The notes under the pieces are model-generated. The model worked only from the letters and a program-made list of their open reading frames with translations. It searched no databases and was not told the origin of the DNA. A stretch of 64,000 nt of DNA, from positions 558-64,557 of the forward strand of contig CAVYNN010000007.1 of assembly GCA_963769855.1 (NCBI GenBank), in the 5' to 3' direction. The stretch comes from an uncultured Actinomycetota bacterium. GTDB taxonomy: Bacteria; Actinomycetota; Actinomycetes; Actinomycetales; Cellulomonadaceae. Made by a program: the position numbers and the translations under genes. Shown piece after piece: positions 39,312 through 53,868 of this stretch; position 1 is the stretch's first letter; the number at the start of each line of letters is the position of its first letter.

Positions 39312-39620
39312 GTGACGACGAATACAGGTGGTGCCTGGACGGCGCTCGGTGACCCGAGCCGCCGGCAGATCGTCGAACGCCTCGCGGAGCACCCGCGGAC
39401 GGTCGCCGAGCTGACCCGGGACCTGCCGATCAGCCAGCCCGCGATCTCCCAGCACCTGCGGGTGCTGCGCGAGGCGGACCTGGTCACCTACACCGTCGAC
39501 GGCACCCGGCACGTCTACCAGGTGCGACCGGACGGCCTTGCGGCGCTGCGTGCTGACCTCGACCGGTTCTGGCGCACCGCCCTGCTGAACTTCCAGCACA
39601 TCGCCGAGGAGGAGACATGA
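39312..39620 (+). CDS. ArsR/SmtB-family HTH regulator
   Basis: ALGDPSRRQIVERLAEHPRTVAELTRDLPISQPAISQHLRVLREADLV. Confidence 0.85.
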   Translation: MTTNTGGAWTALGDPSRRQIVERLAEHPRTVAELTRDLPISQPAISQHLRVLREADLVTYTVDGTRHVYQVRPDGLAALRADLDRFWRTALLNFQHIAEEET

Positions 39621-40096
39621 CCGAGACGACGGCCGCGACCGCGGTCCACCAGGAGATCACCGTCGGCGTGGCCCAGGACCGGGCCTTCGCCGTGTTCACC
39701 GAGCGGTTCGACGAGGTCAAGCCACGCGAGCACACGCTGCTCACCGTGCCGATCGCCCGGAGCGTGCTCGAGCCGTTCGTCGGTGGCCTGCTATACGACC
39801 TGGCCGAGGACGGCTCGACGCTGGTCTGGGGCGAGGTCCTGGTCTTCGAGCCACCGGCGCGGCTGGTCCTGGGCTGGCACCTCGACCCGCAGTTCGAGGT
39901 GGAGGCCGACCCGGCCCGGTGGAGCGAGGTCGAGGTGCGGTTCGTCCCCGAGGCGCCGGACCGCACCCGTGTGGTGCTGGACCACCGGCACCTCGACCGG
40001 CACGGCGCCGGCTGGGAGTCGGAGCGCGACGGGGTCGCCGGGCAGAACGGCTGGCCGCTGTACCTGGCGAGGTTCGCGGCGGCGGCCGGGCGCTGA
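39617..40096 (+). CDS. SRPBCC / AHSA1-like protein
   Basis: 159 aa, with a 4-nt overlap with the ArsR gene. This is the usual ArsR-SRPBCC pair, called on arrangement and size. Confidence 0.6.
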   Translation: MTETTAATAVHQEITVGVAQDRAFAVFTERFDEVKPREHTLLTVPIARSVLEPFVGGLLYDLAEDGSTLVWGEVLVFEPPARLVLGWHLDPQFEVEADPARWSEVEVRFVPEAPDRTRVVLDHRHLDRHGAGWESERDGVAGQNGWPLYLARFAAAAGR

Positions 40097-40126: not shown

Positions 40127-41914
40127 GTGAGTGCGCAGCCGAACGGCTTCCAGGACAAGGTCGCGTTCATCTGGAAAGTCGCGGACACGCTGCGTGGGCA
40201 CTTCAAGCAGCACGAGTACGGCTCGGTGATGCTGCCGCTGCTCGTCCTGCGCCGGATGGACGCCGTGCTCACCCCGACGCGGGAGAAGGTCCGTCAGGTC
40301 GCCGCGTCGTTCGGCGCCAAGCAGCGCGGCCCGGGCGAAGAGCTGCTGCTGCGGAGCACCGCCGGCGTGCCGTTCTACAACCTGTCGCCGCTGGACTTCC
40401 GCGGCATCCTCGCGGACCCGAACAACGTCGCCGAGAACCTCTGGGCGTACGTCAACGGCCTGTCGCCCGAGGCGTTCGAGATCATCGACCGCTACGACTT
40501 CGCCCCGAAGGTCACCCGGATGCAGGCCGGCGGCATCCTCTACCAGGTCCTGTCCGATTTCGCCGACCTCAAGATCGACCCCGGCTCGGTGCCCAACGAG
40601 ACGATGGGCCTGATCTTCGAGGAGCTGCTGCGCAAGTTCTCGGAGATGAGCAACGAGACCGCCGGCGAGCACTACACGCCGCGCGAGGTGGTCCGACTCG
40701 TCGTCGACCTGCTGCTCTCGGGCGAGGCGGCCGACGAGATCGAGGGCAAGACGAAGCCGGTCCGCACGGTGTTCGACCCGGCGGCCGGCAGCGGCGGCAT
40801 GCTCTCGGCCGCGATCGACCGGATCACCGAGCTCAACGCGACCGCGATCGTGCAGGTTTACGGCCAGGAGCTCAACCCCGAGACGTGGGCGATCGCGCGG
40901 TCGGACCTGTTCTTCAAGGGCGTCGACCAGCGCAGCGAGGTCGTCCTCGGCAACTCGCTGACGCAGGACGCGTTTCCGGGCCAGAAGTTCGACTACATGC
41001 TCGCCAACCCGCCCTACGGCGTGGACTGGAAGTCCTACGCCAAACCCATCCAGGCGGAGGCGGCCAACGAGGGCTTTGCCGGTCGGTTCGGCGCCGGGCT
41101 GCCACGTGTCAGCGACGGCAGCCTGCTGTTCCTCCAGCACATGCTCAGCAAGATGAAGTCCGGCTCCCGGATCGGGATCGTGCTGAGCGGGTCGCCGCTG
41201 TTCTCCGGCGGCGCCGGTTCCGGGGAGTCGGAGATCCGGCGCTGGATCCTCGAGAGCGACTGGCTCGAAGGCATCGTCGCGCTGCCGGACCAGATGTTCT
41301 ACAACACCGGCATCTCGACGTACGTGTGGGTGCTGACCAACGCCAAGCCCGCGCACCGGGCCGGGAAGGTCGCGCTCGTCGACGGCCGCGAGCTATTCGC
41401 CAAGATGCGCAAATCGCTCGGGGACAAGCGCAAGTACCTGCCCGACGAGGCGATCGCGACGATTGTCGAGCTCTACCAGGACCTGCCCGACGACCCCCGG
41501 GTCAAGGTGGTGCCCAACGAGGCCTTCGGCTTCCAGCGGGTGACGGTGGAACGGCCGCAACGTTCTGGGGACGACGAGGATGCGCCCGTCGTGATGGTGA
41601 AGGGCAAGCCGGTCGCAGACGCCTCGCTGAGGGACTCCGAGAACATCCCGCTGCCCGCCGGGTATCTGGAGATGTCCGACGAGCAGAAGACGAAGGCACT
41701 CGTCGAGCAGGCCGAGGAGCACCTGCGGACCGAGATCCACCCGTATGTGCCGGACGCCTGGCTCGACCACGCCAAGACGAAGGTCGGCTACGAGATCCCG
41801 TTCACGCGGCAGTTCTACGTGTACACGGCCCCGCGGCCGGTCGAGGAGATCGCTGGAGAGATCCGTGGGCTCGAAGTCCAGATCCAGGAGTGGATGAAGG
41901 GGCTCGGGTTGTGA
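40127..41914 (+). CDS. hsdM: Type I restriction-modification system, N6-adenine methyltransferase subunit
   Basis: HsdM_N-like start FQDKVAFIWKVADTLRG, SAM motif VFDPAAGSGGML, catalytic MLANPPYG. Confidence 0.9.
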   Translation: MSAQPNGFQDKVAFIWKVADTLRGHFKQHEYGSVMLPLLVLRRMDAVLTPTREKVRQVAASFGAKQRGPGEELLLRSTAGVPFYNLSPLDFRGILADPNNVAENLWAYVNGLSPEAFEIIDRYDFAPKVTRMQAGGILYQVLSDFADLKIDPGSVPNETMGLIFEELLRKFSEMSNETAGEHYTPREVVRLVVDLLLSGEAADEIEGKTKPVRTVFDPAAGSGGMLSAAIDRITELNATAIVQVYGQELNPETWAIARSDLFFKGVDQRSEVVLGNSLTQDAFPGQKFDYMLANPPYGVDWKSYAKPIQAEAANEGFAGRFGAGLPRVSDGSLLFLQHMLSKMKSGSRIGIVLSGSPLFSGGAGSGESEIRRWILESDWLEGIVALPDQMFYNTGISTYVWVLTNAKPAHRAGKVALVDGRELFAKMRKSLGDKRKYLPDEAIATIVELYQDLPDDPRVKVVPNEAFGFQRVTVERPQRSGDDEDAPVVMVKGKPVADASLRDSENIPLPAGYLEMSDEQKTKALVEQAEEHLRTEIHPYVPDAWLDHAKTKVGYEIPFTRQFYVYTAPRPVEEIAGEIRGLEVQIQEWMKGLGL

Positions 41915-43137
41915 GGCTCAAGCACGTTTGCGTCGATAACGGGCAGTACGGACTGCTTGTGTCGCCCGACGCGTACCGCGATTCAGGCGTTCGTCTCATC
42001 CGGATAGGCGATCTCGCAGCGGGGAACCTCGCTGACGAGGGGATCTACGTCGAGGGCCCCGTCGCTGAACGCCATCGTCTCGCAGAGGGCGACCTGCTCT
42101 TGTCCCGGTCGGGCACGGTGGGAAGGGCGTACTCGGTGCCAAGTGCTGCGAGTGGCTCAACTTTTGCCGGCTTCCTCATTCGCTTCCGGCCTCGTGATGC
42201 TCGATCGTGCAGGTTTCTCGCATACGCCACGCAGTCTCGCCATTTCCAGGACCAAGTGGCTGCCGGCTCGGTGACCAGCACGATCGACAACTTCAATGCC
42301 GACAGATACGCCAACATCGAGATTCCCTTTCCTGACCTGGACGAGCAGCGGCGGATCGCGGACTTCCTCGACGACCAGGTCTCCCGCATCGACAACGTCA
42401 TCGCCGCCCGTCAGCGGCAAGTGGCTCTGACCGAGTCGATCGGCCGCTCATCGCTGCAATGGGATCTCGACGTGCTAGGCGTCCGATACGGCTGGGTACG
42501 ACTGCGCCACGCTATTCGCGGCATGGAGCAAGGGTGGTCGCCGCAGGCAGACGCCTACCCAGCTCCCGAGGATTCCTGGGGCGTCATGCGCGCTGGTTGT
42601 GTCAACGGCGGCCATTTCGACGCCGAGGACAACAAGGTTCTGCCGGACGGCATCGATCCGCGCACGGAGTACGAGGTCCGGCCCGGAGACCTTCTGATGT
42701 CGAGGGCGAGTGGTTCGATCGAGCTGATCGGGAGCGTGGCAGTCGTGCCGAGTGATGTGCGGCCGCGCCTGTTGCTCTGCGACAAGCTCTATCGGATCGA
42801 CGTTCGCCCTAGGTGGGACCGTGAGTTCGTGGCATTTGCGCTGCGAGGTCAGCACAATCGCGAGCGCATCCGGCTCGGGGTGAGCGGGGCCGAAGGAATG
42901 GCGAACAACCTGCCATCCGGCGTGATCCGCGACTTGCTCTTACCCAACGCACCGCGACCCGTCCAGTCCGGGGCTGCGCGGCGTTTTGCGGAACTGAACG
43001 CCGACTCCCAGCACGGGCGCGATGCCCTCGCACGCTTCATCGACCTGCTGGCGGAGTACAAGCAGTCACTCATCACCGCCGCCGTCACGGGCGAGCTCGA
43101 CGTGACAACGGTGTCCGCTCTCGCGCTGCCGGCCTGA
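41911..43137 (+). CDS. hsdS: Type I R-M specificity subunit
   Basis: GTG overlaps the hsdM stop (GTGA). Two variable TRDs are separated by LDEQRRIADFLDDQVSRIDNVIAARQRQ and close with LLAEYKQSLITAAVTGELDV. Confidence 0.85.
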   Translation: MRLKHVCVDNGQYGLLVSPDAYRDSGVRLIRIGDLAAGNLADEGIYVEGPVAERHRLAEGDLLLSRSGTVGRAYSVPSAASGSTFAGFLIRFRPRDARSCRFLAYATQSRHFQDQVAAGSVTSTIDNFNADRYANIEIPFPDLDEQRRIADFLDDQVSRIDNVIAARQRQVALTESIGRSSLQWDLDVLGVRYGWVRLRHAIRGMEQGWSPQADAYPAPEDSWGVMRAGCVNGGHFDAEDNKVLPDGIDPRTEYEVRPGDLLMSRASGSIELIGSVAVVPSDVRPRLLLCDKLYRIDVRPRWDREFVAFALRGQHNRERIRLGVSGAEGMANNLPSGVIRDLLLPNAPRPVQSGAARRFAELNADSQHGRDALARFIDLLAEYKQSLITAAVTGELDVTTVSALALPA

Positions 43138-43214
43138 CCCGACCTTGCTGCTCGCGTGCTCTGGGGCCGTGTCAGTGCCGGGGAGCACGATCTCCCACAA
43201 GAGGAGGTGAGGAG

Positions 43215-43442
43215 ATGGCTGACTACGACGTCTACAAGGACGGCGAGGAGTGGAAGGCCAAGCGATCCGACGCTGGCCGAGCGGCATCGACGCACTCGAC
43301 GCAGGCCGACGCGATCGACGCGGCACGCGGCTACACCACGCGGTCTGGTGGTGGCGAGCTGAGCATCCATGCAGTCGACGGGCACATCCGCGCCAAGGAC
43401 ACGATCCCGCCGGGGAACGACCCGGTCCCGCCCGCAGGCTAG
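43215..43442 (+). CDS. DUF2188-like small protein
   Basis: 75 aa, with a strong RBS AGGAGGTGAGGAG upstream. YDVYKDGEEWKAKR...STQADAIDAARGY resembles DUF2188 from memory. Confidence 0.6.
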   Translation: MADYDVYKDGEEWKAKRSDAGRAASTHSTQADAIDAARGYTTRSGGGELSIHAVDGHIRAKDTIPPGNDPVPPAG

Positions 43443-43461
43443 ATCCGGAGACCGATACCTG

Positions 43462-43500
43462 ACGTGCCGCCGTAGGCCTCCACGAGCTACGGCGGCACGT
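43462..43500 (+). terminator. 14-bp perfect stem-loop after the DUF2188 gene
   Basis: ACGTGCCGCCGTAG-(11 nt)-CTACGGCGGCACGT. No clear U-tract follows. Confidence 0.4.
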
Positions 43501-43571
43501 TCACGCTGCAAGGCGAACGACACGCTGGGTGGGTGTCGGCGCGGGCCAGGGAGGGCGGTATATTTACTGGC

Positions 43572-44192
43572 ATGTTTTCACCACGAGAGTCGGACGACGT
43601 CCTCGGCGAACTCGGCGACAAGTTTCCGCTCGCGCTGGTCAGGGCCACGGAACGCGCCCGCGACGACCTGCGGGCGCTTCGCGCGTGGCAGCCGCGTTGG
43701 GTTGCCACGATGTTCCAGCGCGAAGTGGCGGGCATCGTCCATGCGCGGATTTGGGACTACGTGACGTCGGACCTCGACGGGGTGGACGGCATTAGCCTCC
43801 GCACCAGTGAGCCGTACCGCGAGGTGCGGATCAGCACTCCGCTCGGCCGCACGTTTCGCGTCCGGGTGAAGAGGCACTCGGAGAGCGATCGGATCAGCTC
43901 GTACCCGACGCCGTCCGACCTGGAGTTCTGGGCGGGCGCCGAGCCAACGTTCGAGGGCCTTGAGGACATCCCCTTGGCGGCTGGCTATCGCTGGGAGGCG
44001 GAGACCGGCGACGTCGGGGCCCCCGTCATCTCGTATCGCGAGGGCAAGCACAATGTCATCTGGGCGGTCGAGGTCGACGGCGGGGTGGCGAGCGGCACGA
44101 CGCCGATCCGCTACACGCCGATCCCGACGCCGGAACTGCCGACGATCGACCTTGCGCGCGGCACCCGCGAGGAGGAGCGCGACGCACGATGA
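43572..44192 (+). CDS. Hypothetical protein with no recognisable domain; candidate toxin/effector partner of the downstream XRE-M78 fusion
   Basis: 206 aa from ATG 43572. TATATT (43559-43564) ends 7 nt upstream, which would fit a leaderless mRNA. The stop overlaps the next start (ATGA at 44189-44192). The ORF track start at 43533 is an alternative. Confidence 0.55.
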   Translation: MFSPRESDDVLGELGDKFPLALVRATERARDDLRALRAWQPRWVATMFQREVAGIVHARIWDYVTSDLDGVDGISLRTSEPYREVRISTPLGRTFRVRVKRHSESDRISSYPTPSDLEFWAGAEPTFEGLEDIPLAAGYRWEAETGDVGAPVISYREGKHNVIWAVEVDGGVASGTTPIRYTPIPTPELPTIDLARGTREEERDAR

Positions 44193-45244
44193 GTGGGATC
44201 GGTGAGGTCCTCGAGACCGCACGCCGGGCCCGGGGGTTGACGCAGGAAGAGCTGGCGGGCGTCGCTGAAGTGACGCAGGCGGCACTGTCCCGCTACGAGC
44301 ACGACCTGCGGACGCCCGAGCCGGAGGTCCTGACGAGGATTGCCGCGGCCCTCGGCGTGACACCCGACCTGCTGACTCGTGGTGGGCGCATGGAGGGCGG
44401 CATCGCCGTCGGTGCGCACATGCGCCGACGGGCCACTGCGAAGGCGACGGTGTGGCGAGAGCTGGAGGCCAGGCTTAACATGCTCCGGCTCCACACGGCG
44501 CGCTTGATGGACGACGTGAACATGCACACAGACCGGCAGGTCCCGACGTTCGACCCTTCGGACGTCTCGCCCTCGGCCGCAGCCCGGATGCTCCGGATCC
44601 AGTGGCGTATCCCGGTGGGGCCGATCCACTCCCTCGCGGCGTGGCTCGATGCGGCTGGCGTACTCGTCGTCGAGCAGGACTTCGGACCGGCGGCGCGTGT
44701 CGACGGACTCTCTCAGTGGTCGGGGGCGTATCCGATCGTCTTGGTCAACAGCGCGGCGCCGCCGGACCGCAAGCGACTGACGCTCGCCCACGAGCTCGGC
44801 CATCTGGTGTTGCACACGTCGTACGTCGATGAGCACGTCGAGGACCAGGCCAACGAGTTCGCCGCCGAGTTGCTCATGCCGGCCGACGAGATCCGGCCCA
44901 TGTTGCGTCAACGGCTCACCCTGACCCGGCTTGTCGACCTCAAGCGCTACTGGGGGGTTTCGATCCAGGCGATTGTCGAGCGCGCCTACCGGCTCGGCCT
45001 CCTGGCGGCCGCTCAGCGCATGTCGCTGTACAAGCAGCTCAGCGCAAGGGGGATGCGCACCCACGAGCCCGCCAGCGACGAGCTCACTCCCGAGGTGCCG
45101 CGGCTCGCGCGCCACATAGCCGAAACTCTGCGCGACCGCGGGCTGACGGCGGGCGAAATCGCGCTACTTGCGGGCTACGACTCGCCGGAGGACAACACCC
45201 TCTTCCCCATAGGCGCCTCCGCGTCCGGATTGCACGCGGTCTGA
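44189..45244 (+). CDS. XRE-family HTH fused to an ImmA/IrrE (M78, COG2856) zinc metallopeptidase
   Basis: HTH LTQEELAGVAEVTQAALSRYEHDLRTPEPEVLTRIAAALGV. HExxH as LAHELGHLVLH, followed by EDQANEFAAELLMP. Confidence 0.85.
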   Translation: MSGIGEVLETARRARGLTQEELAGVAEVTQAALSRYEHDLRTPEPEVLTRIAAALGVTPDLLTRGGRMEGGIAVGAHMRRRATAKATVWRELEARLNMLRLHTARLMDDVNMHTDRQVPTFDPSDVSPSAAARMLRIQWRIPVGPIHSLAAWLDAAGVLVVEQDFGPAARVDGLSQWSGAYPIVLVNSAAPPDRKRLTLAHELGHLVLHTSYVDEHVEDQANEFAAELLMPADEIRPMLRQRLTLTRLVDLKRYWGVSIQAIVERAYRLGLLAAAQRMSLYKQLSARGMRTHEPASDELTPEVPRLARHIAETLRDRGLTAGEIALLAGYDSPEDNTLFPIGASASGLHAV

Positions 45245-45526
45245 CGATCCTTGCCCGACACCTCCTAGGAGGGGGCGGCTGGACCAGGCGGCGCATCCAC
45301 TGGCAGCCGCCGTCACAACCGCCGTCGACCAGCTCGCCGCGGCGGTCGGGGTCTCGCCGGGCAGCCTCGACGGGTTCGTCGGACCGGAGGCGACCTGGGG
45401 TGCTGCTGACCGTCAGCGACCGCCGTTCGCTCGTCGGGCGCGGAAGGTCCCTCAATCCGAGGCTCGCAGGTGCCGAGAGATCGGTACCCGCCGGTGGTCG
45501 TCGGGCATCGAGCGAAGGGGCTCGCC

Positions 45527-45901
45527 GTGATCGACTTCCAGAACGCCTCGTACATCAAGCTCTCGCCGTGGGACCCTGCCGACGCAATCAAGGCCCTCGA
45601 CGGCATCCTCATCGCGGGCGAGCAGGTGCACTTGGCGTTCAAGGGCATCCGCGACTCGGTCACCTTCACCGACAAGCGGATCGTTGCGCTCAACGTGCAG
45701 GGCATGACCGGCAAGAAGAAGGACTTCACCTCGCTGCCCTACGCGCACATCCAGGCCTTCTCGGTGGAGACTGCCGGCACGTTCGACCTCGATTCCGAGC
45801 TCGAGCTGTGGTTCTCCGGGCTGGGCAAGGTCAAGCTGGAGTTCGCCGGGCGCGTCGACATCCGGTCGCTCAGCTACCTCATCGCCGACAAGGTGCTCTG
45901 A
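45527..45901 (+). CDS. Bacterial PH-domain (YokE-like) protein
   Basis: A GTG 7 nt after AGGGG gives 124 aa: IDFQNASYIKL...GEQVHLAFKGIRDSVTFTDKRIVALNVQGMTGKKKDFTSLPY..I.AFSVETAG. The ORF track start at 45470 is an alternative. Confidence 0.6.
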   Translation: MIDFQNASYIKLSPWDPADAIKALDGILIAGEQVHLAFKGIRDSVTFTDKRIVALNVQGMTGKKKDFTSLPYAHIQAFSVETAGTFDLDSELELWFSGLGKVKLEFAGRVDIRSLSYLIADKVL

Positions 45902-45936
45902 CTCCACCAGTCTCGCTCAGGGCGAACACAATTCGC

Positions 45937-45952
45937 TCGAACAGGTGTTCGA
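45937..45952. promoter_or_regulatory. LexA (SOS) box, actinobacterial type
   Basis: TCGAACAGGTGTTCGA matches TCGAAC-N4-GTTCGA at all 12 defined positions. It lies 81 nt upstream of the DUF222/HNH start. Confidence 0.7.
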
Positions 45953-46032
45953 TCCGGTGTCGGATTCGGGTAGCATTGTCGCAGTTCAGGCACCATATCC
46001 GAGGTGCCGCTCGGCAGTGTGAGGGGGCGACC

Positions 46033-47445
46033 GTGGAACGCAGCACGCACCCGTTGGCGGGCGCTCTCACAGCCGCCGTGAACGGCGTGGTCCGGGCCGT
46101 GCAGGCCTCGTCAACCGGGCTGGGCGGGCTGTCGCAGGACGAGGCGCTCGAGCTGCTGCTGACCCTGGTCGCGCAGTCCGGCCGGTTGACCGTCGCCGCT
46201 GCCCGGCTGTCGACGACGGTGGACGACGACGGGATGTGGGCCACGGACGGCGCACGCTCGTTCGCGCACTGGCTGGCGGCCCGCACGGGCATGTCCTTCG
46301 CGAAGGCCCGGGAAACCGTGGCCACCGGCCGCGCGCTGCGCGACCACCTGCCGGCCACCGCTGTCGCGGGCTTGGCCGGGGAGGTTGCCGTGGAGCAGGT
46401 GGCGACGTTGGCGAAGCTGGCGCCGACCAGTAAGGCTCGCCAGACGGTGCTGGCGGCTCCGGCCGAGGAGTGCGGTGAGGAGTTCCTGCTGGCCGAGGCC
46501 CGCGTGCAGCCGGCCGACTCCTTCCGGCGGCTGGTCCGCCGCTGGGCGGCCGCTGCCGACCCGCAGGCCGACGAGCGCGGCTACCGCGAGGCGTGCGAGC
46601 GGGAGTTCGTCGCGGTGGCCCCTACCTTGGACGGTTGGCACCTGGCAGGGTTCCTGACCACGGAGCACGGTGCCCTGTTCGCTGCCGCTCTGGACGGCGT
46701 GATGACCCCGCCGGCCTCCGACGATCCGCGCAGCTACCAGCAGCGCCGCGCCCAGGCGGTAGCCGACGCGTCTCGCCTCCTCCTCGAGAACGGCCTGGTC
46801 GGCACCGGCTCGGCCGTGCGCCCGCACCTGTCGGTCGTGGTCGACTTCGACACCCTGCGCCGCGCCGTGCTGGACGGCCGCGAAGCCGCCGAGAGCGACC
46901 GCGGGACCGTCGAGAACGACCACAGGGCCGATGAGGACGACCGCACGAGCGATGAGACCGGGACAAGCTTCCGCCGGGTGACCGACCAGGCCAGGTCCGG
47001 GTGCCTGTTCCGGCTCGCCCCGGTGGCCGATGTGGAACGCTTCGCAGTCGCCGAGGTCCTGGGCGCCGGGCCGATCCCTTCCTCGGTGCTAGCCCGACTG
47101 GCCTGCGACAGCGAGATCAGCCGGGTCGTGTTCGGCCCGGACTCCCAGGTGATCAACGCCGGCCGCGCCGAACGCACCTTCTCCGGCCCACGACGCAAAG
47201 CCGTCATCGCCCGCGACGGGCACTGTCGCTACCCCGGGTGCACCGCACCACCGGCGCTCGGGGAGATCCACCACGTCGAGCAATGGGCTAGAGACCACGG
47301 CGATACCGACATCAACCTCGGCATTCTCCTGTGCTGGCACCACCATGACCTGGTCCATCGGCTGCACATCGAGATCCGTCGATCTCCCACCGGCGGGTGG
47401 CTGTTCCTCACCCGACACGGCGACCCCGTTGCAGCCGCGGTCTGA
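46033..47445 (+). CDS. DUF222 / HNH endonuclease (REP13E12-like)
   Basis: GTG after GAGGGGG. The N-terminus is DUF222-like (GLSQDEALELL...WATDGARSFAHWLAARTGMS). C-terminal HNH block CRYPGC...EIHHVEQWARDHGDTDINLGILLCWHHHDLVH. Confidence 0.8.
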   Translation: MERSTHPLAGALTAAVNGVVRAVQASSTGLGGLSQDEALELLLTLVAQSGRLTVAAARLSTTVDDDGMWATDGARSFAHWLAARTGMSFAKARETVATGRALRDHLPATAVAGLAGEVAVEQVATLAKLAPTSKARQTVLAAPAEECGEEFLLAEARVQPADSFRRLVRRWAAAADPQADERGYREACEREFVAVAPTLDGWHLAGFLTTEHGALFAAALDGVMTPPASDDPRSYQQRRAQAVADASRLLLENGLVGTGSAVRPHLSVVVDFDTLRRAVLDGREAAESDRGTVENDHRADEDDRTSDETGTSFRRVTDQARSGCLFRLAPVADVERFAVAEVLGAGPIPSSVLARLACDSEISRVVFGPDSQVINAGRAERTFSGPRRKAVIARDGHCRYPGCTAPPALGEIHHVEQWARDHGDTDINLGILLCWHHHDLVHRLHIEIRRSPTGGWLFLTRHGDPVAAAV

Positions 47446-47502
47446 CGCTGGCTTACTGCGCGCGCGCATGTCGTCGGTCAGGTGTCGAGGCGCCCCAACG
47501 CC

Positions 47503-47994
47503 CTACGGGCGCAGGACGAGCGCGGCATTCGTAGCGCGCAGCGCAGCGAAGGTGTCTGCGTAGGGCACGCCGATCGCGAGGCACGCATCGGGGATAAGGA
47601 TGCGCCTGTGTGAGCCCGGTGCCGGCCGCTCGTGCGTCACAACGGTATCGCCGTGCGCCTTGGCATACGCGACGAGGTAATAGTCCGCGGTGTTGCCCAG
47701 GAACTCTGAGATCGCGGCGGCCGTGTAGCTCTGCGAGTTAGCCCACTGTGTGAGCACGGGGAACTCGCGGATGGTCGCAGCGTCGACGGGGCGGAAGAAC
47801 GGCCCATGAGCCGCTGCCCACGCGGCCAAGGGATCGTCGCCGGCGACGAGCTCGTCGCGGACCGGCTCGATGCTGCACACCGACCCGGTGCTGTGGCCGA
47901 GACCGAGCCAGTCCCAGAAGCCCGGCGCGATGTCGAACCCGTAGTAGCGGTTCTTCGCCTCGATGAAGACGTTGGAGTCGAGCACGTACATCAC
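47503..47994 (-). CDS. DUF4411 (PIN-like) protein
   Basis: MMYVLDSNVFIEAKNRYYGFDIAPGFWDWL. The start overlaps the stop of the upstream peptidase gene by 4 nt. Confidence 0.7.
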   Translation of the reverse strand: MMYVLDSNVFIEAKNRYYGFDIAPGFWDWLGLGHSTGSVCSIEPVRDELVAGDDPLAAWAAAHGPFFRPVDAATIREFPVLTQWANSQSYTAAAISEFLGNTADYYLVAYAKAHGDTVVTHERPAPGSHRRILIPDACLAIGVPYADTFAALRATNAALVLRP

Positions 47995-49163
47995 GCGACC
48001 CCCAACTCGGTCGCGAGGTTCTCGAACGTCTCGTGCCTCTTGGTGCCCAGGAGTCGGTACGCGTCGCGGTACGCGGTGCCACCTTCGAGAGCATCGCTGA
48101 TGACGGATCGGGCGAACTTGCGGGAGAGGCGGATCGGCTGCGTGTAGTAGTAGTTCCCGCCGCCACTCTCGCCCCGGCGCGCGGACATGGCGTCGATCAC
48201 CCTGTCGCGCTCGTCGGCGTACCGCACGCGGTAGTCGTCCCAGTCGAGGAATCGGGCGTCGAATAGCCGCTTGAGGATGACAAGCGTGCTCACTCGGTAT
48301 CGCCGCGCCAGACGCTCGAGCTCGGCGACGGTGGGTTCACCGCGATAGTCGGACTGAAGGGCTCCGAGCGGGACGAGCACCTCCGCAGCGACCCGGTTGC
48401 ACCAGATTTCGGTGGCGTTGTCACTCCGACGGGCCATGGCCGCGTCGGACAGCGCGCTGCCGCCGAGCCAGGCGTGGGCAAGCTCGTGTACGAGAGTGAA
48501 GATCTGCGCTGCCTTGGTATCCGCGCCGTTGACGAACACGACGGGCGCGATCGGGTCCACGAGCGTGAAGCCGCGGAACTCCTCGGGATCCAGCGGGCGG
48601 TGCGTGTTCGTCCCCACGATCCCGCTGATCATGACCAGGACGCCCGTGTCCTCGACGAGGTCGATCAGGCGGCGCAGTGCGTCTTCCCAGGAAGCGAAAC
48701 GCGCGCGATCGGCGAGCTCGAAGCCGAGGGACCGGCGGATCCGGTCGGCAGCGATCTCGTGGGGTGTCCTCACGGTCACGGAGCCAATGTCCAAGACCTC
48801 AGGCAGTCCGTGCAGGTTGGCGTAGTTGCGGTACCAGTCCTGGCGTGCTTGACAGAGGTAGATGGTGTCGAGCAGGTCCGCCGAGGGTCGCTCGATCGCA
48901 TGGTTGCCGTGCGTCCGCATGTCCGGAATCGGCAAAGGCTCGTCGGGCGGCTCCTGAAGGAAGAGGAGGCCGACCGGGGTATGGGTCGCCGCGGCGAACC
49001 CCTCCAGCTGCTTGAGTGTGGGCCGATGTCCGGCGATCCATCCGGCAGCATGTGGCGCTCGAGCCGCGAGCTCCTCATCCGTCCACCGAGCCCGCTCGAT
49101 GGCCCACTGCAGGAGCTCAGGCCGGACCTCGACTCTGAGCACCACCGGAATCACCACCCCCAT
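47991..49163 (-). CDS. ImmA/IrrE-family metallopeptidase with a degenerate N-terminal HTH
   Basis: HExxH as LVHELAHAWLG, and an N-terminal LQWAIERARWTDEELAAR...PTLKQLEGFAAATHTPVGLLFL. Start at ATG 49163 or 49217. Confidence 0.75.
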   Translation of the reverse strand: MGVVIPVVLRVEVRPELLQWAIERARWTDEELAARAPHAAGWIAGHRPTLKQLEGFAAATHTPVGLLFLQEPPDEPLPIPDMRTHGNHAIERPSADLLDTIYLCQARQDWYRNYANLHGLPEVLDIGSVTVRTPHEIAADRIRRSLGFELADRARFASWEDALRRLIDLVEDTGVLVMISGIVGTNTHRPLDPEEFRGFTLVDPIAPVVFVNGADTKAAQIFTLVHELAHAWLGGSALSDAAMARRSDNATEIWCNRVAAEVLVPLGALQSDYRGEPTVAELERLARRYRVSTLVILKRLFDARFLDWDDYRVRYADERDRVIDAMSARRGESGGGNYYYTQPIRLSRKFARSVISDALEGGTAYRDAYRLLGTKRHETFENLATELGVA

Positions 49164-49365
49164 GTCGTCAGATCGTTGCTGGAACGTCTGACATCGCACC
49201 TGATCAGCCGGGCTCATACAGATGTGGTGCGGTCGGCTCCGCCTCGTCCTGGCGGGACATCAGCCACCGTACTGCGCATGCGGTGCCACCTTCGATATCC
49301 GAGGTCGTTGCGCCCACCCGCACAACCTGGGACGACGCGGTCAAGAAGCCGATACCGTCGCCTGC

Positions 49366-52356
49366 GTGAGCGTCCACACGGAGCAGGCGTTCGAGGCGAC
49401 CATCGAGCAACATCTGCTCGGTGCCGGCTGGCGGCGGCTCGAGCCGGCTGGCTACGACCGGAGCCTCGGCCTGTTCCCCGACGAGCTGCTGGCGTTCATC
49501 GCGACGTCGCAGCCCGACGAGTGGAAGCAGCTCGTCCTGCGGCTCGGAGGCCCGGATCTCGCCCGCTCGAAGGTGGTCCAGCACATCTCGTCGCTCCTGG
49601 ACCACCGCGGCGCCATCAGCGTGCTGCGCTCCCCGGTGAAGCTCAACGGTGTCACCTTCCGCACCTGCTTCTTCAAGCCCGCCAACACGCTGACGCCGAA
49701 GCTCGTCGAGCGCTACGACGCGAACCGCACGGCGATCGTCCGCCAGCTGCACCACAGCGAGTCGAACTCTGCCGACTCGGTGGACGTCGCACTCGTCGTC
49801 AACGGCATCCCGACGGCCACCGCCGAGCTGAAGAACGGGCTGACTGGCCAGACCTTCAGCGATGCGGTGCGGCAGTACCGCACCGACCGCAACCCTGCCG
49901 ACCTGATCTTCCGGTCGCGAGCCGTCGTCCACTTCGCCGTGGACCCGCACCAGGTCTACATGACGACGAGGCTCGAGAAGCTCGCCACCCGGTTCCTGCC
50001 GTTCAACCAGGGCGGCGGCGGCCCTGGCCACAGAGGCGGCGCTGGGAACCCGGGCAATCCCGACGGCTACGACACTGCCTACCTGTGGGAGCAGGTGTGG
50101 CAGCGCGACGCCTGGCTGGACCTCCTCGGTTCGTTCGTGCACGTCGAGGACGGCACCGTGCTGTTCCCGCGGTTCCACCAGTGGCACGCCGTGCGGTCGA
50201 TCATCGCCGCGACCCTTCGCGACGGCGCCGGCACCAACCGGCTGATCCAGCACTCCGCCGGCTCCGGCAAGTCCAACACGATCGCCTGGACGGCCCACGC
50301 GCTGTCCCGGCTGCACGACGAGACGAACTCCCCGATCTTCGACAAGGTCGTCGTCATCACCGACCGCGTGGTGCTCGACCGCCAGCTTCAGGACACCGTC
50401 GCCGGCCTGGAGCACACGCCAGGCACGATCGTGCGGATCGACAAGGACTCCGCCCAGCTCCATCAGGCGCTGGCAGGCAACGCCGCCCGGATCATCATCA
50501 CCACGCTGCAGAAGTTCCCCGTGGTGGCGACGATGGCCGCCGAGGTGGTCGGGCTCCACTTCGCGGTGATCGTCGACGAGGCGCACTCCTCGACCTCCGG
50601 CGAGTCGATCAAGCAGCTCCAGGCGGTGCTGTCCACCGGCGAGATCGCCGAGCTGACAGCCGAGGAGACCGACGCCGACGAGGGCGTCGACCTCGGGACC
50701 GACGTCATCGCACACTCGGCCGCGGCTCGTCGGGCTCAGCACAACCTCAGCTACCTCGCGTTCACCGCAACGCCGAAGCCGAAGACGCTCAACCTGTTCG
50801 GCGAGCTGGTGCCCGGGACGCCGGACACGTACGTGCCGTTCCACCTGTACTCGATGCGGCAGGCGATCGAGGAGCGCTTCATCCTCGATGTGCTCGCTAG
50901 CTACACGACCTACCAGACCTACTTCAAGCTGGCCACGTCCACGCCCGAGGACCGCGAGGTGCGGGTGGACGAGGCCCGGGCCGAGCTGGCCCGGTTCGTC
51001 GCCCTGCACCCAACGAATCTGTCGGCCAAAGCCCGGATCATCGTCGAGCACTTCCGGGCCAAGACCCGCGGCAAGATCGCCGGCCACGCCAAGGCGATGG
51101 TGGTGACGCGCTCGCGGCAGCACGCGGTGCGGTACTTCCAGGCGATCAGTGCGTACATCAAGGAGAAGGGCTACGACTCGGGGCCGCACCCCCTCGGCGT
51201 GCTCATCGCGTTCTCCGGGACGCTGAACGACGAGGGCGTCGCCTACACCGAGCCGATGCTCAACGGGTTCGGCGAGGCCGAGCTGCCGAAGCGCTTCGAG
51301 ACCGACGACTACCAGTTGCTCGTCGTCGCCGAGAAGTACCAGACGGGGTACGACCAGCCGCTGCTGCACACCATGTACGTCGACAAGAAGCTCGCCGGTG
51401 TCCGAGCCGTGCAGACGCTGTCCCGGCTCAACCGCACCCACGACGACAAGACCGACACGTTCATCCTCGACTTCGCGAACACGGTCGAGGAGATCCAGGA
51501 CGCCTTCGCGGGCTTCTATGAGTCCACGTCGGCCCTGGTCGCCGACCCGAACGACATCTACAACCTGCTCCACACGCTGATGACCCTCCCCGTGCTCGAC
51601 GAGGCCGAGATGGACCAGGCCGTCGCAGCCCTGCTGTCCGGGCAGCAGTCGAAGCAGCAGGTGGTCTACGCGATGACCGGCCGCGCGGTGGCGCGTTTCG
51701 GGGGCTTGGACGACGACCAGCAGGACTTGTTCCGGGGCGCGCTGAACGCCTACGTGCGGGCGTACACGTTCTTCGCCCAAGTGATGACGTGGACCGATCG
51801 CGAGCTCGAGCGCCTCTACCTCTTCGGCAAGGCCCTGGTGACCCAGCTGCCGCGCCACGCGGACGACCCGATGCCGCAGGTCGCCGACGAGGTCGAGCTG
51901 ACCCACCTGCGCACCGCACTCATCGCCGAGGAGGAGAACGCCGCCCTCGACGCCGGGAGTGAGGAGCCGGGCCAGGTGCTGCCCGGCGAGGGCAAGGGCG
52001 GTCAAGACCCCCTGGTCGACAAGCTCTCCGCGCTGATCGAACGGCTGAACGATAAGTTCGGTGTCGGAACCACGGACGCGGACAAGGTCTGGTTCACCCA
52101 GCAGCGCCTCGACGTCATGGCGGACGACGAGCTGCGGGTGGTCGCCCTCAACAACGACCGCGACGGGTTCGAGCTGGTGCTGGGTCAGCGGGTGCCGCAC
52201 CACGTCGCGAAGCGCCACCAGGAGAACCAGAAGATGTTCGACCTGTTCTTCGGCAACCCGCGGTTTCAGCGGATGGTGGTCCAGTACATGGGCGACGTGT
52301 ACGACGAGTTCCGCGCGGATGAGGTGGCGGCGCCGGCCGGGCCGAGCGCCGGGTAG
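49366..52356 (+). CDS. hsdR: Type I restriction enzyme R subunit (helicase-nuclease)
   Basis: GTG 49366 gives VSVHTEQAFEATIEQHL (HSDR_N). Walker A QHSAGSGKSNT and DEAH box VIVDEAHSS. The 48 codons upstream in the ORF track look non-coding. Confidence 0.9.
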   Translation: MSVHTEQAFEATIEQHLLGAGWRRLEPAGYDRSLGLFPDELLAFIATSQPDEWKQLVLRLGGPDLARSKVVQHISSLLDHRGAISVLRSPVKLNGVTFRTCFFKPANTLTPKLVERYDANRTAIVRQLHHSESNSADSVDVALVVNGIPTATAELKNGLTGQTFSDAVRQYRTDRNPADLIFRSRAVVHFAVDPHQVYMTTRLEKLATRFLPFNQGGGGPGHRGGAGNPGNPDGYDTAYLWEQVWQRDAWLDLLGSFVHVEDGTVLFPRFHQWHAVRSIIAATLRDGAGTNRLIQHSAGSGKSNTIAWTAHALSRLHDETNSPIFDKVVVITDRVVLDRQLQDTVAGLEHTPGTIVRIDKDSAQLHQALAGNAARIIITTLQKFPVVATMAAEVVGLHFAVIVDEAHSSTSGESIKQLQAVLSTGEIAELTAEETDADEGVDLGTDVIAHSAAARRAQHNLSYLAFTATPKPKTLNLFGELVPGTPDTYVPFHLYSMRQAIEERFILDVLASYTTYQTYFKLATSTPEDREVRVDEARAELARFVALHPTNLSAKARIIVEHFRAKTRGKIAGHAKAMVVTRSRQHAVRYFQAISAYIKEKGYDSGPHPLGVLIAFSGTLNDEGVAYTEPMLNGFGEAELPKRFETDDYQLLVVAEKYQTGYDQPLLHTMYVDKKLAGVRAVQTLSRLNRTHDDKTDTFILDFANTVEEIQDAFAGFYESTSALVADPNDIYNLLHTLMTLPVLDEAEMDQAVAALLSGQQSKQQVVYAMTGRAVARFGGLDDDQQDLFRGALNAYVRAYTFFAQVMTWTDRELERLYLFGKALVTQLPRHADDPMPQVADEVELTHLRTALIAEEENAALDAGSEEPGQVLPGEGKGGQDPLVDKLSALIERLNDKFGVGTTDADKVWFTQQRLDVMADDELRVVALNNDRDGFELVLGQRVPHHVAKRHQENQKMFDLFFGNPRFQRMVVQYMGDVYDEFRADEVAAPAGPSAG

Positions 52357-53799: not shown

Positions 53800-53868
53800 G
53801 ACAGCCTCGTAAGAGTCGTTGGTGTATCTAACGAGGGCGACCGTACGTTGCTGCGATAAGATACGCAA

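What the first reader, a model, noticed from the sequence alone, without database searches (positions are those of the whole stretch)
43559..45244. Unrecognisable 206-aa protein coupled to an XRE-HTH/M78 peptidase fusion: a RosmerTA-like pair with a possibly new partner
The 43572-44192 product has no motif I can place. It has no P-loop, no HExxH and no obvious PD-(D/E)xK, and it contains stretches such as REVRISTPLGRTFRVRVKRHSESDRISSYP. Its stop overlaps the start (ATGA) of a protein that fuses an XRE HTH to an ImmA/IrrE peptidase (HELGH ... EFAAELLMP). That fusion is the hallmark antitoxin/sensor of the Xre-COG2856 toxin-antitoxin class and of the RosmerTA defence system (Millman et al. 2022), whose toxin partners are diverse. 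A TATATT hexamer 7 nt upstream of the ATG suggests a leaderless, self-contained two-gene operon. The setting inside an R-M locus supports a defence role. This is my best candidate for an undescribed module.
Basis: partly seen in the sequence, partly recalled or inferred. Interest (0 to 1): 0.75.

Follow-up and report, generated by a model that had tools for sequence, protein, structure and literature searches.

The report
Rv2016/Rv2017-type toxin–antitoxin defence pair
This is a real two-gene toxin–antitoxin (probable anti-phage) module whose antitoxin is a RosmerTA-type HTH–zinc-peptidase fusion. Its unannotated 206-aa partner is not entirely new: it very probably belongs to the same family as the experimentally toxic M. 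tuberculosis protein Rv2016.

Summary
A 206-aa ORF (43572-44192) overlaps by ATGA a 351-aa XRE-HTH/M78 peptidase gene (44189-45244), inside a split type I R-M island.

- **Antitoxin.** It matches PADLOC RmrA over its full length (E 2e-56).
- **Partner.** It matches nothing in Pfam, NCBIfam, PADLOC, PHROGs or PDB sequences. It nevertheless belongs to a family of at least 323 clusters. In every intact locus examined it sits directly upstream of an RmrA-like gene: actinobacterial chromosomes, Gordonia phages, an M. abscessus prophage and Rhodococcus plasmids. A proteobacterial sister branch is related by hhalign (98.5%).
- **Link to M. tuberculosis.** Published primers and an sgRNA for Rv2016/Rv2017 encode TELGDKF, RLHAI* and PESEIRP, with the same 4-nt overlap, all matching this family. 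Rv2016 is toxic, and rv2017 is essential only where Rv2016 is intact.
- **Promoter.** An 18-nt element, GGTATATTTTCTGGYATG (a -10 box plus a leaderless ATG), is conserved across Actinobacteria.
- **Fold.** The toxin's β-domain weakly resembles PD-(D/E)xK nucleases, but with RxK in place of (D/E)xK.

Verdict: a new member of a known kind. The toxin's biochemistry is still unknown.

The parts
43462..43500 (+). Perfect 14-bp inverted repeat (hairpin) between the stop of the upstream DUF2188 gene (43442) and the module's promoter. It is a likely terminator or insulator that makes the pair a separate transcription unit.
   Evidence: arms 43462-43475 and 43487-43500, 100% complementary; folding energy -32.1 kcal/mol, z = -3.9, and 0 of 200 shuffles fold as well. 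There is no U-tract, so the terminator function is inferred.
43557..43574 (+). Conserved 18-nt promoter/start element GGTATATTTACTGGCATG. It comprises a -10 box (TATATT, 43559-43564), 7 nt, and then the ATG start, which implies a leaderless mRNA. It may also serve as the operator for the HTH domain.
   Evidence: The consensus GGTATATTTTCTGGYATG is present with 0-3 mismatches in 22 of 22 actinobacterial loci, although the proteins are only 25-73% identical. Information content is 1.7-2.0 bits from -15 to +3 and about 0-0.6 bits further upstream. The element is unique in the window. It contains no Shine-Dalgarno sequence. In 6 of 22 loci the ATG is the only possible start. The transcription start site and operator role are inferred.
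43572..44192 (+). Toxin candidate: a 206-aa soluble acidic alpha/beta protein of the Rv2016-like family. It has an N-terminal helical region (residues 7-68) and a beta-sheet domain (residues 74-183).
   Evidence: There is no hit in Pfam, PADLOC, NCBIfam or PHROGs and none among PDB sequences. The family has 323 clusters. The AF2 model has pLDDT 87 and pTM 0.82. There is no transmembrane segment and the pI is 5.05. Conserved residues are R50, R83, R98, K100, H102, T113, G138, Y139, W141 and W164.
44189..45244 (+). Antitoxin/regulator: a 351-aa fusion of an XRE HTH and an M78 (ImmA/IrrE) zinc peptidase, of RmrA type. Its start overlaps the toxin stop (ATGA).
   Evidence: PADLOC RmrA E 2.2e-56, covering residues 8-325 of the protein. 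Pfam HTH_3 and Peptidase_M78. phrog_2439 E 1.8e-80. NCBIfam spr1629 antitoxin scores 118 bits, below its cutoff of 335. A homologue lies immediately downstream of every toxin homologue examined.
44201..44377 (+). XRE-type helix-turn-helix DNA-binding domain (residues 5-63 of the antitoxin).
   Evidence: HTH_3, HTH_31 and HTH_19.
44648..44986 (+). M78 peptidase domain (residues 154-266). The HELGH zinc motif is at 44789-44803.
   Evidence: HE[LF]GH is conserved at residues 200-203 in all 24 partner proteins long enough to cover it.
45227..45241 (+). Conserved hydrophobic C-terminal tail GLHAV*, with family consensus (R/G)-L-x-(A/V/L)-(V/I)*. It is a candidate ClpX-type degron.
   Evidence: Searches show the tail conserved in most partners. 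Rv2017 ends in RLHAI*, is listed as a candidate ClpP1P2 substrate, and is described as having a ClpX-like Ala-Ile degron (PMC8165232). Degron function here is inferred.

Best explanation
The locus 43557-45244 is a self-contained, leaderless, two-gene type II toxin-antitoxin / abortive-infection module of the Xre-COG2856 (RosmerTA-like) class. It is very probably the same family as M. tuberculosis Rv2016-Rv2017.

**Proposed working**
1. The 206-aa first product is the toxin.
2. The 351-aa second product neutralises it. Through its XRE HTH it also represses the operon at the conserved 18-bp promoter element.
3. Loss of the antitoxin frees or over-produces the toxin and arrests the cell. That loss could come from turnover through the hydrophobic C-terminal tail (ClpXP) and/or from M78-peptidase self-processing triggered by phage infection or stress.
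4. The toxin most likely attacks nucleic acid. Its core has the alpha-beta-beta-beta-alpha-beta layout of PD-(D/E)xK nucleases, but with a rewired site (E84 ... R98-x-K100).

**Status of each step**
- Shown here: the architecture, strict co-occurrence of the two genes, the conserved promoter element, an intact peptidase site, and the absence of a membrane segment.
- Taken from the literature, for the probable M. tuberculosis orthologue: toxicity, weak rescue, conditional essentiality of the antitoxin, and candidate Clp-substrate status.
- Inferred: operator binding, the trigger, the nuclease activity, and anti-phage protection.
For: **Antitoxin identity**
- Full-length RmrA match, HTH plus M78, and HExxH conserved in all 24 partners.

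**Co-occurrence**
- 15 of 15 genome loci have an RmrA-like gene 0-50 nt downstream on the same strand.
- The same holds for distant members at 25-32% identity, for six Gordonia phages and M. abscessus prophage prophiGD44-1, for Rhodococcus plasmids and for IMG/VR prophages.
- Toxin and antitoxin divergence are correlated (r = 0.88).
- Among phages, the eight closest RmrA relatives (49-54% identity) are exactly the eight records that carry the toxin.

**Decay pattern**
- The toxin gene is truncated or frameshifted in L013 and L014 while the partner stays intact.

**Rv2016/Rv2017 link**
- The primers encode M-TELGDKF (window GELGDKF, 18 of 24 nt identical) and a C-terminus RLHAI* (window GLHAV*).
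- The amplicon length 1613 = 576 + 1041 - 4 gives the same 4-nt overlap.
- The sgRNA encodes PESEIRP (window PADEIRP).

**Literature on the M. tuberculosis pair**
- Rv2016 is highly toxic in M. smegmatis and is partly rescued by Rv2017 (PMC6504116).
- rv2017 is essential in H37Rv but dispensable in HN878 (PMC8382161).
- Rv2016 is a Beijing-specific IS6110 insertion site (PMC3701491). HN878's Beijing identity is my own knowledge.
- Rv2017 is a candidate Clp substrate (PMC8165232).

**Promoter**
-.

**Fold**
- The beta-domain model (pLDDT 87) gives as top Foldseek hits two SPARDA-complex chains of about 390 residues (E 2e-3, prob 0.97), then EcoRV, HincII and Cas4-like ACE1. EcoRV, HincII and Cas4 are PD-(D/E)xK enzymes; I could not check which SPARDA subunit or domain is matched.
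- The secondary-structure order fits that core.

**Context**
- A lower-GC R-M island. In phage Howe the pair lies beside the integrases, a VapBC TA pair and the immunity repressor.
Against: - Nothing was tested experimentally for this protein.
- The Rv2016/Rv2017 link rests on short primer- and sgRNA-derived fragments. I could not obtain the full sequences.
- Rescue of Rv2016 toxicity by Rv2017 was 'very limited'.
- Structural similarity to PD-(D/E)xK enzymes is weak (TM 0.29-0.36). The full-length model gave nothing below E 0.09.
- The canonical acidic residues are only partly conserved (D58 88%, D78 81%, E84 79%). The window protein has A58 and T78.
- H57 and H102 are not kept in the proteobacterial branch.
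- Co-occurrence alone does not say which partner is toxic.
- No phage-defence data exist for this family.
Confidence: 0.72

Rival explanations
1. Same module, but the toxin is not a nuclease. It acts in some other way, for example by binding or modifying an essential protein or nucleotide, and the PD-(D/E)xK resemblance is only topological.
For: Foldseek matches are weak. The motif is R98-x-K100 rather than (D/E)-x-K, the acidic positions 58 and 78 are lost in the window's clade, and no nuclease family is detected by sequence. Known RosmerTA toxins are mechanistically diverse (PMC10440598).
Against: The hits after the two SPARDA chains are all PD-(D/E)xK enzymes. The secondary-structure order fits that core. 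The invariant Lys and the conserved Arg/Thr cluster are typical of phosphate chemistry.
Confidence: 0.3
2. It is an ordinary RosmerTA system whose toxin is a very divergent member of an already catalogued RmrT family, so the partner is not new at all.
For: The antitoxin is a full-length RmrA. Four PADLOC RmrT models are 212-227 positions long, close to the 206 aa here. An RmrT-positive E. coli phage protein (Tritos gp40, 204 aa) occupies the same position with the same 4-nt overlap.
Against: None of 86 family members, plus 9 further members, hits any RmrT model, even at permissive thresholds. hhalign of the family profiles against Tritos gp40 gives probability below 1%. The same method does link the actinobacterial and proteobacterial branches at 98.5%.
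Confidence: 0.15
3. The pair is not a toxin-antitoxin system but an ImmR/ImmA-like switch of a mobile element. In this reading the XRE-M78 protein controls induction or immunity, and the upstream protein is a non-toxic accessory such as a sensor or anti-repressor.
For: M78/XRE pairs control ICEBs1 and the Deinococcus radiation response (PMC10440598; PMC6868357, listed). Copies lie in temperate phages near integrases.
Against: Phage Howe has its own immunity repressor elsewhere. Many copies lie in non-prophage chromosomal sites, in R-M islands or on plasmids. The probable orthologue Rv2016 is toxic on its own, and rv2017 is conditionally essential.
Confidence: 0.08
4. The toxin is a membrane-depolarising protein like RmrT_D5 of Gordonia phage Kita.
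For: Kita's RosmerTA also comes from a Gordonia phage and its toxin also has no detectable homologues (PMC10440598).
Against: The Kita toxin is annotated as transmembrane. The window protein has no hydrophobic segment (maximum 19-residue Kyte-Doolittle mean 0.68), is acidic and is predicted globular. Kita is not among the phages matched by either protein.
Confidence: 0.03

Closest known systems
M. tuberculosis Rv2016-Rv2017 toxin-antitoxin pair (TASmania, Akarsu et al. 2019, PMC6504116)
   Same: The gene order is the same (toxin first), as is the 4-nt overlap. Sizes are similar (191 and 346 aa against 206 and 351 aa). The toxin N-terminus is TELGDKF against GELGDKF, the antitoxin C-terminus is RLHAI* against GLHAV*, and the peptidase-region peptide is PESEIRP against PADEIRP. 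The partner is annotated as an HTH_3 regulator.
   Different: Only fragments of the M. tuberculosis proteins could be compared. Rv2016 is annotated about 10 residues shorter at its N-terminus, so the tested construct may have been truncated. TASmania assigned it to a HicA-like cluster, which nothing here supports. The host and context also differ (a Cellulomonas-like R-M island).
RosmerTA (Millman et al. 2022; PADLOC RmrA/RmrT models)
   Same: The antitoxin is a full-length RmrA (XRE HTH plus M78 peptidase), the operon has two genes, and the setting is a defence island.
   Different: The partner matches none of the RmrT models, so PADLOC-type tools would not call the system. Neither defence nor toxicity has been tested.
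Gordonia phage Kita RmrT_D5/RmrA_D25 (NetFlax, Ernits et al. 2023, PMC10440598)
   Same: It is an actinophage-borne ImmA-type antitoxin paired with an orphan toxin, and it has been validated as a toxin-antitoxin system and as anti-phage.
   Different: The Kita toxin is a membrane protein that forms pores, whereas this one is soluble. The native Kita operon is described as antitoxin-toxin, whereas here the toxin comes first.
Proteobacterial branch: Acinetobacter phage ABMM1 gp30 (phrog_15813) and plasmid homologues in Roseicitreum, Polaromonas and Rhizobium
   Same: hhalign gives 98.5% probability and E 2.5e-15 over 185 columns. R50, A53, R98-x-K100, T113, R156 and W164 are conserved. These genes are also always directly upstream of an XRE-M78 gene.
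   Different: H57, H102 and the G-Y-x-W motif are not conserved. The mRNAs are leadered and have Shine-Dalgarno-like sequences, and the 18-nt element is absent.
PD-(D/E)xK nucleases (EcoRV, HincII, Cas4-like ACE1), and two SPARDA-complex chains that top the Foldseek list
   Same: They are the best structural matches to the beta-domain. The alpha-beta-beta-beta-alpha-beta order, a Lys on the third strand, and an acidic residue at the start of the second strand all fit.
   Different: TM-scores are only 0.29-0.36. The motif is R-x-K and not (D/E)-x-K. The acidic residues are incompletely conserved and there is no sequence-level signal. I could not check which SPARDA subunit or domain is matched.
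ImmR/ImmA (ICEBs1) and DdrO/IrrE (Deinococcus)
   Same: The same M78 peptidase and XRE HTH parts are used.
   Different: There the HTH repressor and the protease are separate proteins that control gene induction, with no toxin. Here the two are fused and paired with a toxic partner.

Membership tests
RosmerTA | The antitoxin RmrA is an XRE HTH fused to an M78 (ImmA/IrrE) zinc peptidase | tested here: met
   PADLOC RmrA E 2.2e-56, covering residues 8-325 of the protein. Pfam HTH_3 plus Peptidase_M78. HELGH is present and conserved in homologues.
RosmerTA | An adjacent, co-oriented partner gene forming a two-gene operon | tested here: met
   The two genes share a 4-nt ATGA overlap. The arrangement is conserved in all loci examined.
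RosmerTA | The partner belongs to a recognised RmrT toxin family | tested here: not met
   No RmrT hit was found for the window protein, for 86 family members or for 9 further members. hhalign against an RmrT-positive protein gives probability below 1%.
RosmerTA | The toxin is toxic, the antitoxin neutralises it, and the system protects against phage | not testable with these tools
   Only literature on the probable orthologue is available: Rv2016 is toxic with weak rescue. No defence data exist.
Rv2016-Rv2017 TA family (Xre-COG2856 class) | The toxin is homologous to Rv2016 | tested here: inconclusive
   Only primer-derived ends were available. M-TELGDKF matches the conserved ELGDKF motif (18 of 24 nt), the C-terminus ends in CGATGA, and the gene is 576 bp. 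This is strongly suggestive, but no full-length alignment was done.
Rv2016-Rv2017 TA family (Xre-COG2856 class) | The antitoxin is homologous to Rv2017 (HTH plus M78, about 346 aa, hydrophobic C-terminal tail) | tested here: inconclusive
   RLHAI* matches the family tail. The sgRNA-encoded PESEIRP matches the peptidase region. The overlap arithmetic is 1613 = 576 + 1041 - 4. Only fragments were compared.
PD-(D/E)xK nuclease superfamily | An alpha-beta-beta-beta-alpha-beta core fold | tested here: inconclusive
   The secondary-structure order fits. The hits after the two SPARDA chains are PD-(D/E)xK enzymes, and the best hit has E 2e-3 and probability 0.97, but TM-scores are only 0.29-0.36. The full-length model gave no match.
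PD-(D/E)xK nuclease superfamily | The catalytic D ... (D/E)-x-K motif | tested here: not met
   The third strand carries R98-x-K100 (R 97%, K 100%). E84 is acidic in 79% of members. D58 and D78 are replaced by A and T in the window protein.
HEPN RNases | An R-x4-6-H motif on the last helix of a four-helix bundle | tested here: not met
   R50-x6-H57 exists in the actinobacterial branch, but H57 is lost in the proteobacterial branch. No HEPN hit was found in Pfam or Foldseek.
ImmR/ImmA-type mobile-element switch | A separate HTH repressor cleaved by a stand-alone M78 protease, controlling element induction | tested here: not met
   HTH and M78 are fused in one protein. Many copies lie outside mobile elements. 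Phage Howe carries a separate immunity repressor.

The most novel reading that the evidence does not exclude
The 206-aa protein founds an unnamed toxin superfamily that spans Actinobacteria (including M. tuberculosis Rv2016 and prophages of Gordonia and M. abscessus) and Proteobacteria. In this reading it is a catalytically rewired derivative of the PD-(D/E)xK nuclease fold (R-x-K in place of (D/E)-x-K). An XRE-M78 protease-antitoxin holds it in check; that antitoxin both represses a conserved leaderless promoter and is removed by self-cleavage or ClpXP on phage attack. This would be a distinct, uncatalogued RosmerTA subtype with a new effector chemistry.
Probability: 0.3. Interest if true: 0.6.

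Novelty: new member of a known kind. Interest (0 to 1): 0.42.

Why it matters
- It gives family context to an orphan M. tuberculosis toxin (Rv2016), whose antitoxin is conditionally essential. That context includes conserved residues to mutate, a predicted fold and a promoter/operator element.
- The family is carried by temperate actinophages, plasmids and R-M islands, and current defence-finding tools would miss it because no RmrT model covers it.
- The invariant 18-nt leaderless promoter element offers a direct test of how an HTH-peptidase antitoxin regulates its own operon.
- The system type itself (Xre-COG2856 / RosmerTA) is already known, so the gain is incremental unless the toxin chemistry proves new.

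Tried and rejected
- **Sequence libraries.** The toxin and up to 95 relatives gave nothing meaningful in Pfam, NCBIfam, PADLOC, PHROGs or PDB sequence profiles.
- **Foldseek on the full-length model.** Nothing below E 0.01 against the PDB or BFVD. Only the isolated beta-domain gave weak hits.
- **HEPN idea (R-x6-H).** Dropped because H57 is not conserved in the sister branch.
- **His-based RNase idea.** Weakened for the same reason (H57 and H102).
- **Membrane toxin.** Rejected: no hydrophobic segment.
- **Finding Rv2016 by protein search.** Two profile searches returned only unnamed relatives, and a cluster look-up found no M. tuberculosis entry. The link finally came from published primers.
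- **NetFlax supplement.** The file is truncated, so I could not tell whether node D41 (paired with D25 in a Nocardiaceae genome) is this family.
- **Building an RmrT alignment.** E. coli genomes, plasmids and phages gave almost no diversity, so the profile-profile test against canonical RmrT is weak.
- **Consensus sigma-70 and terminator scans.** Nothing found. The promoter was recognised only by comparing loci.
- **The 18-mer in viral contigs.** 4 of 10 hits were family members; the rest were chance matches in AT-rich phages.
Full report
**Observation**

- TATATT lies at 43559-43564, and an ATG follows at 43572.
- The 206-codon ORF ends at 44192, and its TGA overlaps the ATG of a 351-codon ORF (44189-45244).
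- The second product has an XRE HTH (HTH_3, E 2.5e-14) and an M78 peptidase domain (E 1.9e-22) with HELGH at residues 201-205.
- The pair sits between hsdM/hsdS (40127-43137) and hsdR (49222-52356), all confirmed by Pfam.
- The R-M genes and the roughly 6 kb inserted between them have 65-70% G+C, against 74-79% in the flanking holB/tmk and MFS/TetR genes. This is what an acquired island looks like.

**The second gene**

It matches PADLOC's RmrA models over nearly its whole length (best E 2.2e-56) and phrog_2439 (E 1.8e-80). Its score on NCBIfam's spr1629 antitoxin model is below that model's cutoff. By architecture it is a RosmerTA-type antitoxin.

**The first gene**
- It matches nothing in Pfam, NCBIfam, PADLOC or PHROGs. 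The same is true for 86 diverse relatives in Pfam and PADLOC, and a family profile finds no PDB sequence.
- It is a real gene. There are 35 close clusters, all in Actinomycetes, and a profile search of 1.8 billion representatives finds 323 clusters at E<=1e-3 and 203 at E<=1e-10, nearly all about 200 aa.
- Conserved positions in 86 members are K100, G138 and W164 (100%) and R50, H57, R98, H102, T113, F119, L135, Y139 and W141 (90% or more).
- It is soluble and acidic, with no hydrophobic segment.

**Co-occurrence**
- In 15 of 15 loci from a species-level genome collection, an RmrA-like gene (48-78% identical to the window's) starts 0-50 nt after the homologue on the same strand. None of the window's other neighbours is conserved. 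The mobile unit is therefore the pair.
- The same holds for members only 25-32% identical.
- It also holds for six Gordonia phages. In Howe, gp35 and gp34 lie beside two integrases, a VapBC pair and the immunity repressor.
- It holds for M. abscessus prophage prophiGD44-1, for Rhodococcus plasmids and for IMG/VR prophages.
- Toxin and partner divergence are correlated (r = 0.88), and the peptidase HExxH is intact in all 24 partners long enough to cover it.
- Decayed copies lose the first gene. L013 is truncated next to a tRNA and L014 is frameshifted, yet both keep an intact partner. L015 has lost parts of both genes.
- A proteobacterial branch is homologous by hhalign (98.5%, E 2.5e-15, 185 columns). 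It comprises Acinetobacter phage ABMM1 gp30 (phrog_15813) and plasmid genes of Roseicitreum, Polaromonas and Rhizobium, and it too always lies upstream of an XRE-M78 gene.

**Regulatory anatomy**
- The 18 nt ending in the start codon are almost invariant in 22 actinobacterial loci (consensus GGTATATTTTCTGGYATG; GGTATATTTACTGGCATG in the window, 43557-43574). The proteins themselves have diverged to 25% identity.
- Conservation stops abruptly at -15. The element is unique in the window.
- It contains a -10 hexamer 7 nt from the ATG and no Shine-Dalgarno sequence. In 6 of 22 loci no other start is possible.
- Bases outside the hexamer are also conserved (GG at -15/-14 and -5/-4, forming a GGTAT direct repeat). 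This suggests that the element is also the operator for the HTH domain, which is an inference.
- A perfect 14-bp hairpin (43462-43500, -32 kcal/mol, z = -3.9) separates the operon from the upstream DUF2188 gene.
- Proteobacterial relatives have ordinary leaders.

**Link to M. tuberculosis**

I recalled the Rv2016 (191 aa) / Rv2017 (346 aa) pair, and TASmania confirms its layout and tests.
- Rv2016 is highly toxic in M. smegmatis. Rv2017 gives 'effective but very limited' suppression.
- I could not fetch the proteins, but the paper's primers encode M-TELGDKF. The window has GELGDKF at residues 12-18, with 18 of 24 nt identical at 43602-43625.
- The primers also give a toxin 3' end of ...CGATGA and an antitoxin C-terminus of RLHAI*. 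The window's antitoxin ends GLHAV*, and the family consensus is (R/G)L-x-(A/V/L)(V/I)*.
- The joint amplicon is 1613 bp = 576 + 1041 - 4, which means the same 4-nt overlap.
- A published rv2017 sgRNA encodes PESEIRP, against PADEIRP in the window.
- Together these make family membership very likely, but it is not a full-length test.

Further literature fits toxin-antitoxin logic.
- rv2017 is essential in H37Rv but dispensable in HN878.
- IS6110 insertion in Rv2016 is a Beijing-specific hot spot. HN878 being a Beijing strain is my own knowledge, and the combined inference is mine.
- Rv2017 is listed as a candidate ClpP1P2 substrate with a ClpX-like Ala-Ile end. That matches the conserved tail I see.
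- TASmania's 'HicA-like' label for Rv2016 came from a marginal hit (0.038) and finds no support here.

**Fold and mechanism**
- AF2 gives a confident model (pLDDT 87, pTM 0.82). It has four helices (residues 7-68) followed by an antiparallel sheet with one helix (residues 74-183).
- Foldseek finds nothing significant for the whole chain.
- The beta-domain alone (pLDDT 87) gives weak hits. The top two are SPARDA-complex chains of about 390 residues (E 2e-3, prob 0.97, TM 0.36; E 8.5e-3). EcoRV, HincII and a Cas4-like protein follow. EcoRV, HincII and Cas4 are PD-(D/E)xK nucleases, and the SPARDA effector also carries such a domain (my own knowledge). I could not verify which SPARDA subunit or domain is matched.
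- The order helix(49-68)-strand-strand-strand-helix-strand fits that core. E84 lies at the start of strand 2 and R98-x-K100 on strand 3, 16 residues apart.
- The canonical acidic residue is an Arg, however, and D58 and D78 are A and T in the window's clade. H57 and H102 are absent in the proteobacterial branch, which argues against a His-based or HEPN-type RNase.
- I therefore commit to a nucleic-acid-targeting toxin on a rewired PD-(D/E)xK scaffold. I put only about one-in-three confidence on that step.

**Comparison with known systems**
- The module works like RosmerTA and meets its antitoxin and operon criteria. Its partner fails the test against catalogued RmrT families (hhalign below 1% against an RmrT-positive E. 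coli phage protein). That last test used a single sequence, because I could not assemble a diverse RmrT alignment.
- It differs from the Kita phage RosmerTA, whose toxin is a membrane pore-former.
- It is not an ImmR/ImmA-type switch.

**Verdict**

This is a genuine, well-conserved toxin-antitoxin / defence-type module. It is a new member of a known kind (Xre-COG2856 / RosmerTA-like, Rv2016-Rv2017 family). Three things add value:
- the toxin family is unannotated;
- its reach extends to M. tuberculosis, actinophages and Proteobacteria;
- it carries a conserved leaderless promoter element.

Toxicity, the trigger, the toxin's chemistry and phage defence all remain untested for this locus.

Noticed in passing
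window 47503-49217 (- strand): A second peptidase-containing pair lies in the same island. A 408-aa M78 peptidase protein (47991-49217) has a stop that overlaps the start of a 163-aa DUF4411 PIN-like protein (47503-47994; DUF4411 E 6.6e-45). This is the ImmA/PIN-like association noted by NetFlax. It has the opposite gene order to the target pair.
   Followed up: partly
window 43215-43442 (+): A 75-aa DUF2188 protein lies just upstream of the module. It matches PADLOC's phage-defence candidate PDC-S16 (E 1.7e-17). It is not conserved next to the pair in other genomes.
   Followed up: partly
window 40127-52356: The type I R-M system is split. hsdM and hsdS are separated from hsdR by about 6 kb carrying DUF2188, the target pair, a bPH_1 protein, a DUF222 protein and the M78/DUF4411 pair. 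The whole block has 65-70% G+C against 74-79% in the flanks.
   Followed up: partly
window 45470-45901 and 46033-47445 (+): A bacterial PH-domain protein (bPH_1, E 2.3e-38) is followed by a 470-aa DUF222 protein (E 6e-28). From my own knowledge, not checked here, DUF222/REP13E12 genes also flank Rv2016 in M. tuberculosis (Rv2015c).
   Followed up: no
window 39312-40096 (+): An ArsR-family HTH gene is followed by an AHSA1/SRPBCC gene at the island's edge. The same domain pairing (COG3832-ArsR, Rv2035-Rv2034) is listed as a putative toxin-antitoxin pair in M. tuberculosis (PMC3968373).
   Followed up: no
L003 3360-3403; L007-L011 and L014, about -27 to -20 from the ATG: The Aeromicrobium locus L003 carries two tandem copies of the GGTATATTT(C/T)C core before the start. 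Pseudonocardiaceae loci share an extra CCAAGATC box about 20 nt upstream of the element, which may be a -35-like site or a second operator half.
   Followed up: no
L013 700-1404; L014 1879-2473; L015 6001-6963; L009 6606-7748: These are decayed copies. The toxin is truncated beside a tRNA gene in L013, frameshifted in L014 and reduced to its last ~57 residues in L015. The partner is intact in L013 and L014. In L009 the partner ORF stops at 233 aa, which may be a MAG error.
   Followed up: partly
L017 6001-9291 versus L018 6001-7667: Two Mycobacteriales-like genomes carry the pair at the same chromosomal site, after a Na/Ca exchanger gene and near pepN and an Rv2466c-like gene. One of them has an additional N6_N4 DNA methyltransferase plus a 238-aa gene inserted right after the pair.
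   Followed up: no
L039 (Klebsiella aerogenes) 1801-2959: A proteobacterial-branch toxin homologue is unannotated here. It lies next to a retron-like reverse transcriptase, an SMC-domain gene and an integrase. The partner is annotated only as a short 'y4mF family' regulator, so it may be truncated.
   Followed up: no
window 52360-54579: Strong A-over-T skew on the + strand (up to 0.55) coincides with an MFS-type membrane transporter gene on the - strand and a divergent TetR-like regulator. This is an ordinary codon-composition effect.
   Followed up: yes
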